A stretch of 64,000 nucleotides of DNA from an uncultured Anaerolineales bacterium (GTDB lineage: Bacteria; Chloroflexota; Anaerolineae; Anaerolineales; UBA11858). This document shows positions 2,716 to 60,345 of this stretch, in pieces; the stretch's first letter is position 1, and each line of letters starts with the position of its first letter. Location of the stretch: contig CAYUXO010000001.1 of assembly GCA_964448865.1 (NCBI GenBank), positions 4,747 through 68,746 on the forward strand, read 5' to 3'. A model generated the notes under the pieces. It was not told the origin of the DNA. It worked only from the letters and a program-made list of their open reading frames with translations, and searched no databases. The position numbers and the translations under genes were made by a program.

Positions 2716-4080
2716 ATGAAACGTTCTCTATGGATCGCCACCTTATTCATAATAATCGGACTACTTTTCGCTGCCTGTGCCAGCCAGCCTGAGCCCGTAG
2801 TGGAAACTGAAGTACCTGATGCGAATAACCCCATGTCAGCCATACAGACATTAACTGCATCAACCACGCTGGTTCCGCCAACTCCTGTTGGTGGGGTTGT
2901 GGTTGAAGGACCGGATGACTATGTTGGAATAGTCAGACAGGCCTGGAGCATTATAAATGCGGAATATGTACGGGATAATTATAATGGCGCTGATTGGCCA
3001 GCTATTTATGATGAATATGTAGGTTTAGCAGAAGATATAACTTCATCAGAAGATCTGTGGGTGTTATTGGCTGATTTGGTTTCCGAATTAAATGATGATC
3101 ACAGTCGTTTTGTGCCGCCGGAAAGGATGGGCGCAGAATTCAGTATTGAGACCAAAGATGACCCTGAACCAAGACCTGCCACTGGAATAGTGGTTTGGCC
3201 AGGTCCTGGTCGGGAAGATGAATATCTAACTATTTGGGATGTTTGTGAACTCAGCTCAGCTGCGTCTGCTGGTCTAACCCGGGGAGACATAATATTGGCT
3301 GTGGATGGAGTAGCGGTTGAAAAAATTGATGGTGAATTTCCAAGAGACGTCCGTATTGCTTCAATATTTGGGACAGATGGAAATTCTGTCAGTTTGACAG
3401 TGTGGCAGGGACCAGATCAGGACCCTGTAGATATAAACTTGCCATTAGGTGGTGTCGGGAATTGCCCCTACAGATATTTTTACGTGGTGAATGAAAATCC
3501 ACGCATTGCATATATCAGGGTGCCGGACTTTGATGGTGATACCGAATCATATCTCTTGAAAACCCTTGCAGAATTAGAAGAAGAGGGGGATCTGGATGGT
3601 TTGATCGTGGATGTTCGTCATAACCCCGGCGGAAATTCAGATGCGTCAACAGAAGTATTTGCTGAAGGCATAGTTGGCACAGAGGGGCCTTTCAGGGAAG
3701 GTGAGCAGAGGACAATTTACCGGATGCGTGGTCCGGTGGGTTGGAATGACATTACCCCGCTGGTTGTGCTAACAGATGGCGCCAGTCACAGCGCGGCTGA
3801 TTATTTTCCGGCATCTTTGAAGGAGCTGGAGCGAGCTACCATTGTAGGTATGAACTCAGCTGGCAACACAGAGGGCATCACCAGTTGGCTTCTGGCAGAC
3901 GGCACTTTGATACGATTGGCTGTCACAACCCTGGCGTTGAATGATGGTACTGTATTGGAAGGAATTGGTGTAACGCCCGACGTGATCGTTCCCCTGGGAA
4001 CCTGGGGGCTGAAGGCAAAACCCTATGATACCCAGATCCAGGCAGCCATTGATACATTGCTGGATATGATCGGAGAATAA
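2716..4080 (+). CDS. S41-family (C-terminal processing / tail-specific) peptidase, predicted lipoprotein
   Basis: ORF 2683..4080. ATG 2716 follows AGGAG. The signal peptide plus lipobox is MKRSLWIATLFIIIGLLFAAC. LIVDVRHNPGGN and LTDGASHSAADYF are S41 catalytic-region motifs. Confidence 0.75.
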   Translation: MKRSLWIATLFIIIGLLFAACASQPEPVVETEVPDANNPMSAIQTLTASTTLVPPTPVGGVVVEGPDDYVGIVRQAWSIINAEYVRDNYNGADWPAIYDEYVGLAEDITSSEDLWVLLADLVSELNDDHSRFVPPERMGAEFSIETKDDPEPRPATGIVVWPGPGREDEYLTIWDVCELSSAASAGLTRGDIILAVDGVAVEKIDGEFPRDVRIASIFGTDGNSVSLTVWQGPDQDPVDINLPLGGVGNCPYRYFYVVNENPRIAYIRVPDFDGDTESYLLKTLAELEEEGDLDGLIVDVRHNPGGNSDASTEVFAEGIVGTEGPFREGEQRTIYRMRGPVGWNDITPLVVLTDGASHSAADYFPASLKELERATIVGMNSAGNTEGITSWLLADGTLIRLAVTTLALNDGTVLEGIGVTPDVIVPLGTWGLKAKPYDTQIQAAIDTLLDMIGE

Positions 4081-4096
4081 TTAGGACAATAAGTAG

Positions 4097-4127
4097 AAAA
4101 AAACCGCCTGTTATCAGGCGGTTTTTA
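4097..4127. terminator. Bidirectional rho-independent terminator between convergent genes
   Basis: aaaaaaaCCGCCTGttatCAGGCGGttttt. The GC-rich stem has an A-run on one side and a T-run on the other. Confidence 0.8.
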
Positions 4128-4138
4128 GTTAATCATAA

Positions 4139-4224
4139 GGATGCGGGATCCTGCAGGAAATCCTGTAAACACCTATTAGAATTGAGAATGCAGGATTCAC
4201 TATCACCCAGAGGATCCCGCATCC
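4139..4224. repeat. REPIN-like inverted doublet of the 13-nt motif GGATGCGGGATCC
   Basis: GGATGCGGGATCC at 4139-4151 and its exact reverse complement GGATCCCGCATCC at 4212-4224. It lies in the convergent intergenic gap. The same core motif flanks the RAYT-like genes at 58.1-58.8 kb. Confidence 0.75.
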
Positions 4225-55778: not shown

Positions 55779-55798
55779 AGCTCTATCTGCTGGATCTG

Positions 55799-55829
55799 GA
55801 TGCGGGATATTACTGAAATCCCGCATCCT
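55799..55829. repeat. Short hairpin built from the same REP core (GGATGCGGGAT / ATCCCGCATCC); likely also a terminator
   Basis: GGATGCGGGATattactgaATCCCGCATCC is followed by tttatt, 20 nt after the stop of the PLP gene. Confidence 0.7.
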
Positions 55830-56614: not shown

Positions 56615-58036
56615 ATGGGAACGACATTAATAAAGAATGGAACTTTAATTACTGCAGAAAAATCATTCCCAGCTGACCTGTTGATTGTCGATGAACAAAT
56701 TGCCCAGGTAGGGGAGAATCTGGAAGCTCCTGGGGCAGAGATTGTAGATGCCGGGGGACAATTTGTGTTACCAGGTGGAATCGATCCCCATGTGCATCTG
56801 GACCTGGCAATGTTTGAAACTGTTTCGTCTGATGATCATTATACAGGCCATAAAGCTGCAGCTTTTGGGGGTACCACAACAGTAATGGATTTTGTTGAGG
56901 ATAAGGACCCTGACCTATTGAAAAATATTTCCGCGTTAAGGGAAAAAGCTGATCCCAAAGCAGCTATTGATTACAGTTTCCACCTCAATATCACAAAATT
57001 CGATCAAAAAGTAGCCGACCAGATTCCAGCCATTTTGAAATCGGGAGTGACAACGCTAAAGGTATTTACAGCCTATAACAACCGTCTGCGTCTTCAGGAT
57101 GGAGAAATATTCCAGTTAATGCTGAAAGCAGCTGAATACGGTTTATTGACCATGCTTCACGCTGAAAATGGTGACGTGATTGACATCCTTGTAGCCCAGG
57201 CACTAAATGCTGGCCGCACAGAGCCAATCTGGCATGCCAGGACTAGACCTGCCTGGGGTGCAGTGGAGGCTGTGTTACGGGGCGCTGCCCTGGCAGCCCA
57301 GGCTGATGCACCGTTGTATATCGTTCATATGAATACTGCCGGGGGGATCGACCAGCTGGCGTATGCCAGGGAGCGCGGTTTAAAGGTAATGGGAGAGACC
57401 TGTCCTCAATATATGTTCTTCTCTGAAGAGGACCTGGAACGACCGGATGGAGCTAAATGGATTTGTTCTCCTCCCATGAGGACCAAAATCGATCAAGCCA
57501 GGATCTGGCAGGGATTAACAGCAAACACTTTGCAAACAGTAGGCACTGACCACTGTCCATTTTTCTATGATGGGACCAAACCAATTGAATATGAAGGATA
57601 CCCCGTGATGATTCCCGGAAAAGAACTGGGAAAAAATGATTTTACAAAGATTCCTAACGGATTACCGGGGGTGGAGGACAGGATGCCGATTCTCTGGACA
57701 GAAGGTGTTGGAAAGGGAAAAATTACGGCTAACCAATTTGTCGCTTTTACAAGTACAAATCCGGCAAAGATATTTGGTTTATATCCTAAGAAAGGTTGTT
57801 TAGAGCCCGGGTCAGACGCTGACCTGGTGATCTGGGATCCCGGGAAGAAATTGATTTATGGAGTTGATGTTGCTCATCATCGGACTGATTACAACCTTTA
57901 CGAAGGCTGGGAGCTGGAAGGATATCCTGAAAAAGTATTCCTACGGGGGAAATGCATTGTTGATGGTGAAAAATGGCTCGGTAAAAAAGGTCAGGGAAAG
58001 TTCCTGGCAAGGAAGCCATTTGCAGAGGTAGTTTAG
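56615..58036 (+). CDS. Dihydropyrimidinase / D-hydantoinase (cyclic amidohydrolase)
   Basis: LPGGIDPHVHL, TLKVFTAY (carboxylated Lys), MLHAENG, VHMNT and GTDHCPF are present. The protein is 473 aa. Confidence 0.85.
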   Translation: MGTTLIKNGTLITAEKSFPADLLIVDEQIAQVGENLEAPGAEIVDAGGQFVLPGGIDPHVHLDLAMFETVSSDDHYTGHKAAAFGGTTTVMDFVEDKDPDLLKNISALREKADPKAAIDYSFHLNITKFDQKVADQIPAILKSGVTTLKVFTAYNNRLRLQDGEIFQLMLKAAEYGLLTMLHAENGDVIDILVAQALNAGRTEPIWHARTRPAWGAVEAVLRGAALAAQADAPLYIVHMNTAGGIDQLAYARERGLKVMGETCPQYMFFSEEDLERPDGAKWICSPPMRTKIDQARIWQGLTANTLQTVGTDHCPFFYDGTKPIEYEGYPVMIPGKELGKNDFTKIPNGLPGVEDRMPILWTEGVGKGKITANQFVAFTSTNPAKIFGLYPKKGCLEPGSDADLVIWDPGKKLIYGVDVAHHRTDYNLYEGWELEGYPEKVFLRGKCIVDGEKWLGKKGQGKFLARKPFAEVV

Positions 58037-58060
58037 GGAATATCTAATATTGAGAAGGGA

Positions 58061-58085
58061 CACGGTATCCTCAAAGGATACCGTG
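58061..58085 (+). terminator. 10-bp hairpin after the hydantoinase gene
   Basis: CACGGTATCCtcaaaGGATACCGTG. There is no clear T-run, so the terminator role is tentative. Confidence 0.45.
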
Positions 58086-58098
58086 TGGGGAGATGAAT

Positions 58099-58180
58099 GG
58101 ATGCGTGATCCTGAGTCAAATAATTGATAAAATCGCTTTGATAATCATCAGTTATAAGTAAATATAAGGATCATGCATCC
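58099..58180. repeat. REPIN-like inverted doublet (GGATGCGTGATCC ... GGATCATGCATCC)
   Basis: The forward arm is 58099-58111. The reverse arm is 58168-58180, with 1 mismatch to the exact reverse complement. The arm-to-arm offset of 69 nt compares with 73 and 70 nt in the other doublets. Confidence 0.7.
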
Positions 58181-58203
58181 TATCAATTCAATGGGGGAAA
58201 TAT

Positions 58204-58758
58204 ATGGATCAAGCAAGACTTGATTTTGGTCTTTTTTATCACAACAGAGGAAATAATAGGGGTCCGATATTTACAGAGGAACGTAATTATTATTACTTCC
58301 TTGATTTAATGAGGAAGTATCTCCTTCCAATTTTGGATTTGTACGCCTATTGTTTGCTTCCAAATCATTTCCATTTGTTGATCAGAGTATAAGATTTGGA
58401 AAATTTTCAATCAGAATCTAATTCAGCTCGAAATCTATCAATTTCACTTAGTTCATTTTTTGGCACATATACCAAAGGATTTAATAAGAGTAATAGACGT
58501 ACAGGGAAATTATTTGAAGGTCGTTTTAAGAGAAATTTGATATTAAACGATCAACAGTTATTTCAAACAATTAAGTATATTCATCATAATCCGCAGAATC
58601 ATGGATTGGTAAAGGATTTCAGGATTTGGCCATACTCATCATATTGGAATTACATAAATAGAAATTCGGGAGGGTTAATATATGAAGGATTATTATATGA
58701 TAGAGATTTTTACATTGCCGTCATGAGTGTTATTGAAGGTGAATCAGAGGATGCGTGA
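58204..58758 (+). pseudogene. RAYT-like IS200/Y1 (HUH) transposase interrupted by one in-frame TAA (58390-58392)
   Basis: ORFs 58204..58392 and 58396..58758 are in the same frame. The HUH motif is LPNHFHLLI. GKLFEGRFK and the catalytic-Tyr motif YIHHNP are present. The stop aligns with the Lys (AAA) of paralog 2. Confidence 0.75.
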
Positions 58759-58831
58759 TCCTCTGACTGGAAACCATCTGAGAATATAAGTAAGAACATT
58801 TAATTATTGAAATACTCAGGATCACGCATCC
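58749..58831. repeat. REPIN-like inverted doublet (GGATGCGTGATCC ... GGATCACGCATCC)
   Basis: The forward arm is 58749-58761 and contains the TGA stop of the upstream pseudogene. The exact reverse complement lies at 58819-58831. Confidence 0.75.
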
Positions 58832-58854
58832 TGAGGAATCATAGGGGGAATTTC

Positions 58855-59448
58855 ATGGATAAGAAATATTTCCAATTCAGTGAATTTTATTATTTATATT
58901 TTTGGGGAAATCATCGTGAAGCTCTCTTCAGAGAAGATAAAAATTACCATGTCTTCCTTGATTTATTTAGAAAATATTTATCTCCAATATCCGATTTGTA
59001 TGCTTATTGTCTGTTACCGACACATTCGCACTTGATATTGAGAATTAAAGACTATGTTGATATTGGCTGTTATTATTTCGATGGTCAAATGATCTGGAAA
59101 CAGATAAAGACTTTTTTTTGTTCTTATATTCACTGGAATAATAAAAATTCAAATGGTACACCAAAAATACTTGGCAGTAAATATTACGGAAGAAACCTTG
59201 ACTGTATAGAATCCTTATACAAGTTGATCCCCTACATTCACCAAAATCCTGAAAATCATGGCATTGTGTCAGACTACAAATTCTGGCCTTATTCCTCTTA
59301 CCATACATATTTCAAAAGAGATCGAAGGTCCTTTTTAGCTAGAATACTATTCTCTGATGATGAGTTATACAATACAATTATGGCAATGCACGGGAAAACG
59401 ATTAAACTAGAGGAGTGGAACTATTATCAAAAGGAAATGGTTTCCTGA
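58855..59448 (+). CDS. RAYT-like IS200/Y1 transposase paralog 2 (divergent)
   Basis: ORF 58807..59448. ATG 58855 is chosen by analogy with paralog 1 (SD GGGGGAA + ATGGAT). LLPTHSHLILRI (HUH-like) and PYIHQNPENHG are present. The central GRF motif is degenerate (GSKYYGRN). Confidence 0.65.
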   Translation: MDKKYFQFSEFYYLYFWGNHREALFREDKNYHVFLDLFRKYLSPISDLYAYCLLPTHSHLILRIKDYVDIGCYYFDGQMIWKQIKTFFCSYIHWNNKNSNGTPKILGSKYYGRNLDCIESLYKLIPYIHQNPENHGIVSDYKFWPYSSYHTYFKRDRRSFLARILFSDDELYNTIMAMHGKTIKLEEWNYYQKEMVS

Positions 59449-59478
59449 AAGAAAGCCCTTTCCTACGACAGAAATCTT

Positions 59479-60345
59479 ATGAAAAACCTTACCGTAAAGG
59501 ACTTTACTTTCGACTGGGGAACCCGAACATATATCATGGGTATCCTCAACCTCACACCGGATAGTTTTTCGGGAGATGGACTGACTGGAGAGGGTCTGGA
59601 TTCGGCGTTAAAACAAGCCCGGGAATTTGTGGAATCCGGAGCGGATATCCTTGATGTAGGGGGAGAGAGCACTCGCCCGGGAGCTGATCCTGTATCAGCT
59701 GAAGAAGAAATTGACCGGGTTCTGCCGCTAATAACCCAGCTTGTAGATGAATTTGATATTCCAATATCGATTGATACCTATAAATCATCTGTCGCCAGGC
59801 AAGCAGTCAAAGCTGGGGCCGCGATCATCAATGATGTCTGGGGTTTTCGAGCGGACCCGGATCTGGCAGCTTTTGCTTCTCATTCTGGTGTCCCCGTGAT
59901 CCTGATGCACAACCGCAGCACACCCAATAACGCCGCTGTTCGAGAACAACTGGGAGGGCGATATGTCGGTGTTGAATATGATGATTTATTGGAAGATGTC
60001 AAATCTGAACTGCTCGAGAGTGTTTCCCTGGCTAACCAGGCAGGTATTCCAGACCATATGATCATTCTTGATCCGGGAATCGGTTTTGGAAAAACTGTTG
60101 AACAAAATCTGGAATTGCTCAATAGATTAAATGAGATCCGTTCCCTCGGATATCCTGTTTTATTGGGTCCCTCCCGGAAATCATTCATTGGTTATACTCT
60201 TGACTTACCCCTGGATGATAGAGTTGAGGGCACTGCCGCTGCAGTCGCAGTTGGCATCACTCGTGGAGCAGATATCATCAGGGTGCATGACGTGCCCGAG
60301 ATGGTAAGGATAGCTCGTATGACAGACGCCATTGTAAGGTCCTGA
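59479..60345 (+). CDS. folP: Dihydropteroate synthase
   Basis: GILNLTPDSFSGDG, DVGGESTRPGA, SIDT and GPSRKSF form the full DHPS motif set. Confidence 0.92.
   Translation: MKNLTVKDFTFDWGTRTYIMGILNLTPDSFSGDGLTGEGLDSALKQAREFVESGADILDVGGESTRPGADPVSAEEEIDRVLPLITQLVDEFDIPISIDTYKSSVARQAVKAGAAIINDVWGFRADPDLAAFASHSGVPVILMHNRSTPNNAAVREQLGGRYVGVEYDDLLEDVKSELLESVSLANQAGIPDHMIILDPGIGFGKTVEQNLELLNRLNEIRSLGYPVLLGPSRKSFIGYTLDLPLDDRVEGTAAAVAVGITRGADIIRVHDVPEMVRIARMTDAIVRS

What the first reader, a model, noticed from the sequence alone, without database searches (positions are those of the whole stretch)
58099..59448. Tandem RAYT-like Y1 transposase genes, each preceded by an inverted REP doublet
Two paralogous IS200/Y1 (HUH) transposase-like genes sit head-to-tail. 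Each is preceded by the same layout: GGATGCGTGATCC, a ~56-nt spacer, its reverse complement, a GGGGGAA SD, then ATGGAT. This is the arrangement described for REP-associated tyrosine transposases and REPINs (Nunvar 2010; Bertels and Rainey 2011). Those systems have been characterised mainly in Proteobacteria, whereas the surrounding genes look Chloroflexota-like. A tandem RAYT pair with one decaying copy is also unusual, because RAYTs are typically single-copy per REP family.
Basis: partly seen in the sequence, partly recalled or inferred. Interest (0 to 1): 0.72.

Follow-up and report, generated by a model that had tools for sequence, protein, structure and literature searches.

The report
Tandem RAYT genes with REP doublets
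This is a domesticated-transposase locus of a known kind: two paralogous RAYT nuclease genes, one broken by a stop codon, each preceded by an inverted pair of their short palindromic REP repeats, inherited at one fixed chromosomal site across a group of Anaerolineales bacteria.

Summary
Window 58099-59448 holds two head-to-tail HUH/Y1 genes that are 38% identical. Each is preceded by GGATGCGTGATCC, a 56-57 nt spacer, its reverse complement, a GGGGGAA ribosome-binding site and ATGGAT. Copy 1 carries an in-frame TAA that recurs in five independent assemblies.

Both proteins match only the NCBIfam RAYT model, below its cut-off. The only solved structure a family profile finds by sequence, and the best fold match of the copy 2 model, is E. 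coli TnpA-REP (4ER8). No tnpB or IS ends are present.

The same REP pairs occur elsewhere: two more intergenic sites in the window, and 40 doublets in the window, its close relatives and related Chloroflexota MAGs. Their arms always agree (T/T or G/G), spacers are mostly 54-60 nt, and they lie in intergenic DNA. In one MAG, three dispersed doublets are 95-97% identical through the spacer.

The gene pair is an old duplication into two clades, A and B. It sits between the same amidohydrolase and folP genes in every relative examined. Different relatives carry both genes intact, one decayed, or only A.

Verdict: a genuine REP/RAYT system and a new member of a known kind, closest to TnpA-Y1 subclass 2.6 (RAYT group 5). 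The conserved tandem pair and the 15-nt REP without a GTAG tag are modest variations. Nuclease activity is inferred, not shown.

The parts
58099..58180 (.). REP doublet 1 (REPIN-like). Left arm GGATGCGTGATCC at 58099-58111 (+). Right arm at 58168-58180 (-) with one mismatch. Spacer 56 nt.
   Evidence: As single-stranded DNA it folds into a long hairpin closed by the two arms, z = -3.9.
58193..58199 (+). GGGGGAA Shine-Dalgarno-like motif, 4 nt upstream of the copy 1 ATG.
   Evidence: The same motif and spacing are seen upstream of orthologues.
58204..58758 (+). Copy 1: B-clade RAYT pseudogene. HuH motif is HFH and the Tyr motif is YIHHNP. It keeps the canonical RTGKLFEGRF motif. Its TGA stop lies inside the left arm of doublet 2.
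   Evidence: NCBIfam NF047646 58.8 bits. Intact orthologues P0037 (88% identity) and P0039 (78% identity) exist. dN/dS is 0.20.
58390..58392 (+). In-frame TAA nonsense codon in copy 1. Intact orthologues have Lys here.
   Evidence: The split is reproduced in L001-L005.
58749..58831 (.). REP doublet 2. Both arms are exact: 58749-58761 (+) and 58819-58831 (-). Spacer 57 nt.
   Evidence: Hairpin z = -4.6.
58844..58850 (+). GGGGGAA Shine-Dalgarno-like motif upstream of copy 2.
58855..59448 (+). Copy 2: A-clade RAYT, intact, 197 aa. HuH motif is the atypical HSH and the Tyr motif is YIHQNP. The central motif has diverged to NGTPKILGSKYYG.
   Evidence: NF047646 51.1 bits. AlphaFold2 model with pLDDT 89. 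Best fold match is 4ER8, E 1e-7. dN/dS is 0.16-0.29.
59433..59465 (+). GGAAATGGTTTCC ... GCCCTTTCC element spanning the copy 2 stop codon. It is conserved downstream of the A gene in other genomes and may be a second small-palindrome type or a terminator.
4139..4224 (.). REP doublet 3, the G variant: GGATGCGGGATCC / GGATCCCGCATCC with a 60-nt spacer. It lies between convergent genes, just after a terminator-like hairpin.
   Evidence: Hairpin z = -5.0.
55798..55828 (.). Tight palindrome GGATGCGGGAT-9 nt-ATCCCGCATCC followed by a T-rich tail. It looks REP-derived and terminator-like. It lies in the same intergenic region where three related MAGs carry a G/G doublet.
   Evidence: z = -4.8.

Best explanation
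This is the REP/RAYT locus (a 'REPtron') of an Anaerolineales-type Chloroflexota genome. It holds two anciently duplicated, chromosomally fixed HUH/Y1 single-strand DNA nucleases, one from clade B (copy 1) and one from clade A (copy 2). Each is flanked by its cognate repeat, a 15-nt palindromic REP (A-GGAT-GCGKG-ATCC-T, a 5-bp stem with a 5-nt loop). The REPs are arranged as inverted doublets about 70 nt apart.

By analogy with E. coli TnpA-REP, the proposed mechanism is as follows. The enzyme binds the REP hairpin in single-stranded DNA. It cleaves through the Tyr of the Y-x3-NP motif, with the HuH histidines holding the metal. It then rejoins strands, which occasionally copies a whole doublet (a REPIN) into other intergenic sites.

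In this genome copy 1, the more canonical enzyme, has been inactivated by a fixed nonsense mutation. The doublets here have unrelated spacers. The local system therefore looks old or quiescent and partly decaying.

Shown here: protein family and fold, REP association, intergenic dispersal, arm concordance, vertical inheritance, purifying selection. Inferred: nuclease activity, the substrate strand and cleavage site, and that RAYT moves the doublets.
For: **Protein**
- Only NF047646 (REP-associated tyrosine transposase) matches, at E 5.5e-16 and 1.3e-13.
- A family profile finds a single credible PDB entry, 4ER8 (TnpA-REP), at E 2e-6. The family's YIHQNP aligns on DYIYINP, which places the Tyr on Y115 by my count of the printed alignment.
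- The copy 2 model (pLDDT 89) matches 4ER8 best (E 1e-7, TM 0.66). IS608 and ISDra2 TnpA come only at about 1e-3.

**REPs**
- There are four inverted pairs in the window, all intergenic.
- The strict doublet pattern finds 32 loci in reference genomes. 29 of them are in Chloroflexota/Anaerolineales MAGs, with 10 doublets in each of two MAGs.
- A looser pattern run on the window, three close relatives and those 29 loci lists 40 doublets (two nested, several orthologous or duplicated between related genomes). Their arms are always concordant (T/T or G/G), and 35 of 37 non-redundant spacers are 54-60 nt although 45-75 was allowed in the scan.
- None overlaps a plausible gene.
- They fold as long hairpins, z = -3.9 to -5.3.

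**Propagation as a unit**
- Three doublets on different contigs of one MAG are 95-97% identical through the spacer, with unrelated flanks.
- L044 has an extra doublet downstream of gene A that close relatives lack.
- A doublet is present, decayed or absent at one orthologous intergenic site.

**Domestication**
- The genes lie between the same amidohydrolase and folP wherever both flanks are visible, down to about 70% nucleotide identity; in L055 folP itself is missing and htpG follows.
- There is a single locus per genome and no tnpB.
- dN/dS is 0.16-0.29.

**Coupled decay**
- The sister lineage L007 lacks B.
- Its A gene has HuH changed to HSY and the Tyr changed to Phe.
- Both of its REP arms are degenerate.
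Against: - Both proteins score below the curated NCBIfam cut-off (58.8 and 51.1 bits against 80). They do not hit Pfam Y1_Tnp at E<=1.
- The REP lacks the 5' GT[AG]G or CGTC tag that is essential for E. coli TnpA-REP binding and cleavage. It is also shorter than classical REPs.
- Copy number is low. I found at most 10 exact doublets per related genome, and only two non-RAYT sites in these 64 kb.
- Doublets in the window have spacers at background similarity, so there is no sign of recent transposition in this genome.
- Copy 2 has a non-hydrophobic HuH (HSH). It has also lost the Arg equivalent to R97, which contacts the REP stem in E. coli.
- No biochemical data exist for this clade.
Confidence: 0.85

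Rival explanations
1. These are ordinary IS200/IS605-family insertion sequences. Two autonomous copies inserted side by side, and the inverted repeats are their subterminal hairpin ends.
For: The proteins have the HUH/Y1 fold shared with TnpA of IS608 and ISDra2. Distant homologues carry Pfam PF01797. The genes are flanked by hairpin-forming sequences.
Against: - No IS200/IS605 NCBIfam or Pfam model matches, and 4ER8 outranks every IS TnpA.
- The Tyr motif is Y-x3-NP (class 2) rather than Y-x3-Q.
- There is no tnpB neighbour.
- The genes occupy one fixed syntenic site in all relatives, over deep divergence, instead of variable multi-copy sites.
- The two copies are 38% identical ancient paralogues.
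- The repeats occur far from any transposase gene.
Confidence: 0.03
2. The repeats are host structural or regulatory hairpins, such as terminators, mRNA stabilisers or protein-binding sites, kept by selection. The RAYT-like proteins no longer move them. The proteins may persist for a non-transposition role such as binding or processing these sites.
For: - The arms are perfectly conserved while the spacers have drifted to background similarity with their length retained, which suggests selection on the arms rather than recent copying.
- Many doublets sit 5-30 nt from gene ends.
- The site at 55798-55828 looks like a working terminator built from REP arms.
- Copy 2 and its clade carry atypical catalytic-region motifs, yet dN/dS is about 0.2. 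The pairwise comparisons that include L007, whose orthologue has lost one HuH His and the Tyr, give 0.18-0.26.
Against: - Near-identical dispersed doublets in one relative, BIME-like REP arrays next to the genes and gain/loss polymorphisms all indicate active copying in at least some lineages.
- The simple terminator scan found nothing at the RAYT-flanking doublets.
- This reading is compatible with the main explanation rather than exclusive of it.
Confidence: 0.1
3. The resemblance to a REP system is coincidental. The motif is a local duplication artefact created when the gene was tandemly duplicated along with its upstream region.
For: Both upstream regions share the same layout, as expected if a gene-plus-leader unit was duplicated.
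Against: - The genes are only 38% identical, while the 13-nt arms are identical and the spacers between them are unrelated.
- The same arms occur 54 kb away in the window and on many contigs of other genomes that have no RAYT gene nearby.
Confidence: 0.02

Closest known systems
TnpA-Y1 subclass 2.6 of Quentin et al. 2018 (PMC6006769), equal to RAYT group 5 of Bertels et al. 2017 (PMC5581495)
   Same: - Motif signature: N/T-H-u-H, YIH[QN]NP and a conserved SS in the C-terminal extension.
- Length of about 180-195 aa.
- Genes flanked by 'atypical secondary structures' without GTAG, with copies of them elsewhere in the genome.
- About 1.8 divergent paralogues per genome at about 41% identity.
- More distant homologues of copy 1 come from Bacteroidota, the home phylum of subclass 2.6.
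   Different: - The host is Chloroflexota (Anaerolineales).
- The conserved WQ motif is replaced by F-E (LFEGRF/Y).
- Clade A uses T-H-F/S-H.
- The two paralogues are adjacent and fixed at one syntenic site.
- Assignment rests on the published motif table only. No reference sequences were available for a joint phylogeny.
E. coli TnpA-REP / RayT (YafM), PDB 4ER8, and its REP/BIME 'REPtron'
   Same: - Best and only significant solved-structure relative.
- HuH plus Y-x3-NP active site.
- Gene flanked by its cognate REPs.
- REP arrays next to the gene in some relatives (L054).
- Extragenic dispersal.
   Different: - Only 19% identity over the fold alignment.
- The E. coli REP is about 32 nt, with a bulged stem and an obligatory 5' GTAG guide. 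This one has a 15-nt core with a 5-bp stem and no tag.
- E. coli has a single gene, whereas this locus has two.
REPIN-RAYT systems of Pseudomonas fluorescens SBW25 and relatives (Bertels and Rainey 2011, PMC3116915; RAYT groups 2 and 3)
   Same: - Inverted REP doublets at a fixed offset of about 70 nt that form long hairpins.
- Arms that co-vary.
- Vertical inheritance of a non-duplicating RAYT.
- In the L007 lineage, an A gene that has lost catalytic residues sits beside degenerate REP arms, as expected if repeats decay once the enzyme fails (that expectation is from my own reading of this literature, not re-checked here).
   Different: - Population size here is tens at most, not hundreds (group 2 and 3 flanking 16-mers average 57 and 140 occurrences per replicon).
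- Most doublets have unrelated spacers rather than forming a quasi-species around a master sequence. One MAG is the exception.
Here two paralogues are adjacent and flanked by the same REP.
IS200/IS605 TnpA (IS608, ISDra2)
   Same: HUH/Y1 fold and recognition of DNA hairpins in single-stranded DNA.
   Different: - No model hit.
- A Y-x3-NP motif rather than Y-x3-Q.
- No tnpB.
- Not multi-copy.
- Fixed syntenic position.

Membership tests
RAYT / TnpA-REP (class 2 TnpA-Y1) | HuH motif plus a catalytic Tyr in a Y-x3-NP motif on an HUH fold | tested here: met
   Copy 1 has HFH and YIHHNP. Copy 2 has HSH and YIHQNP. The Tyr aligns with Y115 of 4ER8. The copy 2 model matches 4ER8 best. Caveat: Ser as the middle HuH residue in copy 2 is atypical.
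RAYT / TnpA-REP (class 2 TnpA-Y1) | Score above the curated family thresholds (NCBIfam NF047646 cut-off 80 bits; Pfam PF01797 gathering score) | tested here: not met
   The scores are 58.8 and 51.1 bits against a cut-off of 80. There is no Pfam hit at E<=1. These are divergent members; more distant homologues do carry PF01797.
RAYT / TnpA-REP (class 2 TnpA-Y1) | Gene flanked by palindromic repeats that also occur elsewhere in the genome, outside genes | tested here: met
   Both genes are flanked. In L044 doublets lie on both sides of each gene. Extra intergenic sites are at 4139-4224 and 55798-55828. Related MAGs carry 10 doublets each, none overlapping a plausible gene. A genome-wide count for the window's own genome could not be made.
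RAYT / TnpA-REP (class 2 TnpA-Y1) | Low copy number, vertical inheritance, no near-identical duplicates | tested here: met
   Every homologue examined sits next to the same amidohydrolase, and between it and folP wherever both flanks are visible. The paralogues are 38% identical. Only these two genes were found in the window.
RAYT / TnpA-REP (class 2 TnpA-Y1) | Canonical REP with a 5' GT[AG]G (or CGTC) tetranucleotide at the foot of the hairpin | tested here: not met
   In a profile of 105 REP copies, only A at position -1 and T just after the core are conserved outside the 13-mer, and there is no tag. The feature is also absent in subclass 2.6 according to PMC6006769, so it does not define the whole class.
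RAYT / TnpA-REP (class 2 TnpA-Y1) | Site-specific ssDNA cleavage and strand transfer on the cognate REP | not testable with these tools
   This requires biochemistry. It has been shown only for E. coli TnpA-REP (PMC3479197).
REPIN (REP doublet forming hairpin) | Two REPs in inverted orientation at a characteristic distance, folding into one long hairpin | tested here: met
   40 doublets were listed, and 35 of 37 non-redundant spacers are 54-60 nt. Hairpins with 14-19-bp stems fold with z = -3.9 to -5.3.
REPIN (REP doublet forming hairpin) | The doublet replicates as a unit, giving many near-identical copies including the spacer | tested here: inconclusive
   This is met in one related MAG, where three dispersed copies have 95-97% identical spacers and unrelated flanks. 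Arm concordance in all doublets also supports it. It is not met in the window or in the two MAGs with the most doublets, where spacers are at background similarity.
IS200/IS605 insertion sequence | TnpA with a Y-x3-Q motif, usually a tnpB partner, defined left and right ends, and multiple mobile copies | tested here: not met
   No model hit. The motif is Y-x3-NP. The neighbours are an amidohydrolase and folP. The site is single and syntenic.

The most novel reading that the evidence does not exclude
The A and B paralogues may be more than redundant duplicates. They could form a conserved two-component RAYT: a canonical catalytic subunit (B) and a diverged partner (A) that in some lineages loses HuH, Tyr or DNA-contact residues yet stays under purifying selection. 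The two might act together, as a heteromer or with divided roles, on the two arms of a doublet or on the T and G REP variants.

That would address an open problem stated for E. coli TnpA-REP: how a monomeric RAYT coordinates events at both ends of a REP pair (PMC3479197).

Support:
- One A gene and one B gene are adjacent at the same site in at least seven species-level lineages, in either order.
- Both show dN/dS of about 0.2.
- Both are flanked by the same REP.

Against:
- Several lineages keep only A (L007, L055, L056).
- B is decaying in the window and in L038.
- A retains fully canonical motifs in L052 and L054 although B is present.

On balance, partial redundancy is the more likely explanation.
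Probability: 0.1. Interest if true: 0.65.

Novelty: new member of a known kind. Interest (0 to 1): 0.35.

Why it matters
The finding extends REP/RAYT systems to Anaerolineales-type Chloroflexota, with a well-resolved example. I found no paper that mentions RAYTs together with Anaerolineae.

It also offers a natural comparative series at one fixed locus:
- both paralogues intact (L043, L044, L052, L054, L035);
- the canonical paralogue knocked out by a fixed nonsense codon (this window);
- that paralogue deleted, with the survivor's catalytic residues and the flanking REPs degenerate (L007).

Such a series could be used to test, in a new phylum, whether REPIN populations depend on their RAYT. 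It could also show what a RAYT does for the host when it is retained without its catalytic residues.

The very small, tag-less REP (15 nt) is a simple substrate for asking how class 2.6-like enzymes recognise DNA.

For annotation, both genes currently fall below the curated thresholds and appear as hypothetical proteins. The split copy 1 is called as two ORFs.

Tried and rejected
- **Pfam scan of both proteins.** No hit at E<=1.
- **Rfam scan of the whole window.** No family reached its gathering score.
- **Promoter and terminator consensus scan of 57900-59600.** Nothing above shuffle expectation, and nothing at the doublets.
- **Repeat search of the whole window.** No other dispersed repeat family was found.
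- **One paralogue per REP variant.** I asked whether the T and G loop variants are each served by one paralogue (A with T, B with G). I first counted MAG JAIORG as 'A only, T only'. However, contig L054 carries the identical A protein (P0025) with a B gene and an 816-nt REP array upstream. JAIORG is simply fragmented there. In L052 and L054, B is flanked by T-type REPs. The idea has no support and could not be tested without whole genomes.
- **A diverges only when B is present.** Rejected, because A is canonical in L052 and L054 alongside B.
- **GGAAACNGTTTCC palindromes as a second REP family.** There is only one weak match in the window and two in L056. Left as a side note.
- **Non-Chloroflexota hits in the genome scan.** The Bifidobacterium and Acidobacteriota hits (L011, L015, L023) do not share the A...T flanks of the REP, and the Acidobacteriota ones sit in GGGATCC/GGGATGC simple repeats. 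I excluded them.
- **The window's own genome.** It did not appear in the genome-contig scan, so a genome-wide count for this organism was not possible.
Full report
**1. Observation**

Upstream of each gene lies the same layout:
- GGATGCGTGATCC (58099-58111 and 58749-58761);
- a spacer of 56 or 57 nt;
- the reverse complement (58168-58180 with one mismatch, and 58819-58831 exact);
- GGGGGAA;
- ATGGAT (ATG at 58204 and 58855).

Copy 1 (58204-58758) is a single reading frame interrupted by TAA at 58390-58392. Copy 2 (58855-59448) encodes an intact 197-aa protein. The two proteins are 38% identical (E 1e-42).

The motif is over-represented in the window. It occurs 7 times against 1.7 expected, and the 11-mer core occurs 10 times against 2.8. 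No shuffle of 100 reached either value.

Eight of the ten core occurrences form four inverted pairs, all between genes:
- the two pairs at the RAYT genes;
- a third doublet at 4139-4224, the G variant GGATGCGGGATCC, between convergent genes and just after a terminator-like hairpin;
- a tight palindrome at 55798-55828.

The copy 1 stop codon is a real allele. The same 62 aa + 120 aa split is called in five independent assemblies that are 99.8-99.9% identical to the window.

**2. What the proteins are**

- Pfam gives nothing at E<=1.
- NCBIfam gives a single family for both proteins, NF047646 'REP-associated tyrosine transposase'. The scores are 58.8 and 51.1 bits, below the curated 80-bit cut-off.
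- A profile of the family finds one credible solved structure, E. coli TnpA-REP (4ER8), at E 2e-6; the only other listed match (4L3I, E 0.49) is not significant. The YIHQNP motif aligns on DYIYINP. Counting along the printed alignment puts the family's Tyr on Y115.
- An AlphaFold2 model of copy 2 (pLDDT 89, pTM 0.86) matches 4ER8 best: E 1e-7, TM 0.66 normalised to the target. IS608, ISDra2 and IS200 TnpA structures follow at about 1e-3.
- Copy 1 has HFH, RTGKLFEGRF and YIHHNP.
- Copy 2 has HSH, a diverged NGTPKILGSKYYG and YIHQNP. In E. coli, R97 in the equivalent stretch makes a base-specific contact with the REP stem (PMC3479197). Copy 2 has Lys at that position.
- The superfamily is very large. 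A search of 50%-identity cluster representatives returned 48,096 at E<=1e-3 and 2,246 at E<=1e-30.
- No tnpB gene or IS ends are present. The neighbours are an amidohydrolase, folP and htpG.

**3. The repeats in other genomes**

An exact scan of one genome per species for GGATGCRKGATCC-N45-75-GGATCMYGCATCC returned 32 loci.
- 29 are in Chloroflexota/Anaerolineales MAGs, with 10 doublets in each of two MAGs.
- The three loci in Bifidobacterium and Acidobacteriota are unrelated and were set aside: they lack the REP's A...T flanks, and the Acidobacteriota ones are simple-sequence repeats.

A profile of 105 copies defines the REP as A-GGAT-GCGKG-ATCC-T, with no conserved GTAG or CGTC tag.

A looser pattern run on the window, three close relatives and those 29 loci lists 40 doublets; two are nested, and several are orthologous or duplicated between related genomes. 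Among them:
- the two arms always carry the same K variant, T/T or G/G;
- none overlaps a plausible gene, and many lie 5-30 nt from a gene end;
- six doublet-type sequences folded as single-stranded DNA give a long hairpin closed by the two arms, z = -3.9 to -5.3.

Evidence that doublets are copied as units:
- In MAG JAIORG, three doublets on different contigs have 95-97% identical spacers with unrelated flanks. They are 86% identical to the doublet next to the RAYT gene.
- Contig L054 carries an 816-nt array of REPs and 20-nt tandem REP units between its two RAYT genes. This resembles the BIME clusters of the E. coli REPtron.
- Contig L044 has a third doublet downstream of gene A that replaces the 3' end found in its close relatives.
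- In one intergenic region there is a G/G doublet in three MAGs, variously decayed, none in a fourth, and the tight palindrome in the window lineage.

Outside these cases and orthologous sites, spacers are at background similarity: mean 0.595 against 0.566 for shuffles. This includes the three doublets in the window. The copies in this genome are therefore old, or only the arms are being maintained.

**4. The locus is fixed and the pair is ancient**

Every homologue whose context I retrieved sits beside the same amidohydrolase, and between it and folP wherever both flanks are visible:
- close relatives at 87-96% nucleotide identity (L007, L043, L044-L051);
- MAGs at only 70-77% identity in the flanking genes (L035, L020+L030, L033, L038, L026, L040);
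- contigs carrying proteins 45-51% identical to the window's (L052, L054, L056);
- L055, where folP itself is missing and htpG follows the RAYT gene directly.

A neighbour-joining tree resolves two sister clades, and every tandem pair consists of one A and one B.
- Clade A is like copy 2, with T-H-F/S-H.
- Clade B is like copy 1, with N-H-F-H.

| State of the locus | Where |
|---|---|
| Order B-A | window, L043, L044, L052, L054 |
| Order A-B | L035, L030+L020, L038, L033 |
| Both genes intact | L043, L044, L052, L054, L035 |
| B truncated | L038 |
| B frameshifted (possibly a long-read error) | L033 |
| B with an HuH His-to-Tyr change | L020 |
| Only A present | L007, L055, L056 |

Both genes are under purifying selection, with dN/dS of 0.16-0.29. 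The flanking amidohydrolase gives 0.06-0.09 and folP gives 0.10-0.19. The comparisons involving the window's copy 1 give 0.20, so its nonsense mutation is recent.

In L007, B is absent. Its A gene has HSY in place of HSH and FIHQNP in place of YIHQNP. Its flanking REP arms are degenerate: GGATCCGTGATCC and GGATCATGTATCC.

**5. Interpretation**

This is a REP/RAYT system. It consists of domesticated, vertically inherited HUH/Y1 nuclease genes with cognate palindromic repeats arranged as REPIN-like doublets.

The mechanism is inferred from E. coli TnpA-REP, not shown here. It comprises binding of the REP hairpin in single-stranded DNA, Tyr-mediated cleavage and strand transfer.

In this genome the more canonical paralogue is dead and the doublets look old. 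The system therefore appears quiescent or partly decaying.

**6. Comparison with known systems**

The published motif table of Quentin et al. 2018 points to subclass 2.6, equal to Bertels group 5. Its features are NH[LIV]H, YIH[QN]NP, SS, about 179 aa, 'atypical secondary structures' as flanks with copies elsewhere in the genome, 1.8 copies per genome at 40.7% identity, and a mainly Bacteroidetes distribution. Bacteroidota proteins are indeed the next-closest homologues of copy 1.

REPs and RAYTs are already reported in Chloroflexi. GTAG repeats are reported in PMC3733652. Group 4 is reported as common in Caldilineae in PMC5581495. I found no paper that mentions RAYTs together with Anaerolineae, and the word 'tandem' does not occur in the two classification papers.

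The differences are the Anaerolineales host, the adjacent A/B pair fixed at one site and sharing one REP, the F-E replacement of the WQ motif, and the very small REP.

**7. Verdict**

The finding is real and correctly interpreted. It is a new member of a known kind, of moderate interest as a comparative system. The most novel reading still open is that A and B work together as a two-component RAYT. Lineages that keep only A make this unlikely.

Noticed in passing
window 55798-55828: Tight palindrome GGATGCGGGAT-9 nt-ATCCCGCATCC followed by TTTATT, downstream of a PALP-domain gene. It looks like a terminator built from two G-type REP arms, as if a doublet had lost its spacer. It is conserved in L007 and L043. 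Three more distant MAGs have a full G/G doublet in the same intergenic region.
   Followed up: partly
window 58746-58758: The last three codons and the stop of copy 1 (E-D-A-stop, GAGGATGCGTGA) are encoded by the left REP arm of doublet 2. The same is true in the intact orthologues of L043 and L044.
   Followed up: partly
window 58060-58086: Perfect hairpin ACACGGTATCC-TCAAA-GGATACCGTGT, 24 nt after the amidohydrolase stop codon and just before REP doublet 1. There is no T tract after it. Its function is unknown.
   Followed up: no
window 59433-59465; L052 5380-5450; L056 8325-8355; L035 about 1770-1800: Small palindromes of the form GGAA-N5-TTCC (GGAAATGGTTTCC, GGAAGCCGTTTCC, GGAAACNGTTTCC) sit downstream of the A gene in all genomes examined. 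They also lie on both sides of the lone A gene in L056, and they form terminator-like hairpins elsewhere. This may be a second or older REP class with the same 4-bp stem and 5-nt loop architecture.
   Followed up: partly
L054 626-1442: An 816-nt intergenic array lies between the B and A genes. It contains three REP doublets, extra REP copies at 65-76 nt spacing, and about six to ten tandem 20-nt units (GGATGCGTGATCT + 7 nt). It resembles the BIME clusters flanking E. coli rayT.
   Followed up: partly
L055 10001-10594: In this 1.05-Mb contig the A-clade gene (P0007) ends in ...RISGMTDAIVRA. That matches the C-terminus of FolP (RIARMTDAIVRS in the window). The folP gene itself is missing and htpG follows directly. 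This is apparently a deletion that fused the RAYT gene to the folP 3' end.
   Followed up: no
window 58204-58755 compared with L044 3195-3773: Synonymous divergence of the B gene between the window and L044 is dS 0.50. That is about three times the value for the adjacent A gene (0.17) and the amidohydrolase (0.15). It suggests recombination or a separate history for B within this closely related group.
   Followed up: no
L020 7479-8000: The B-clade gene of MAG CAWAOV has NYFH in place of the NHFH HuH motif, that is, the first His is changed to Tyr. Its orthologue in CAVOGS (L035) is otherwise nearly identical. This may be another independent inactivation of B.
   Followed up: no
window 3722-3734: A single one-mismatch copy of the core (GGATGCGTGGTCC) lies inside the 465-aa peptidase-like ORF. 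It has no partner arm and no A...T flanks, and is most likely a chance match.
   Followed up: partly
window 4100-4127: Terminator-like hairpin AAAAAACCGCCTGTTATCAGGCGGTTTTT lies directly upstream of REP doublet 3. In several MAG loci as well, doublets lie immediately after terminator-like hairpins at gene 3' ends.
   Followed up: no
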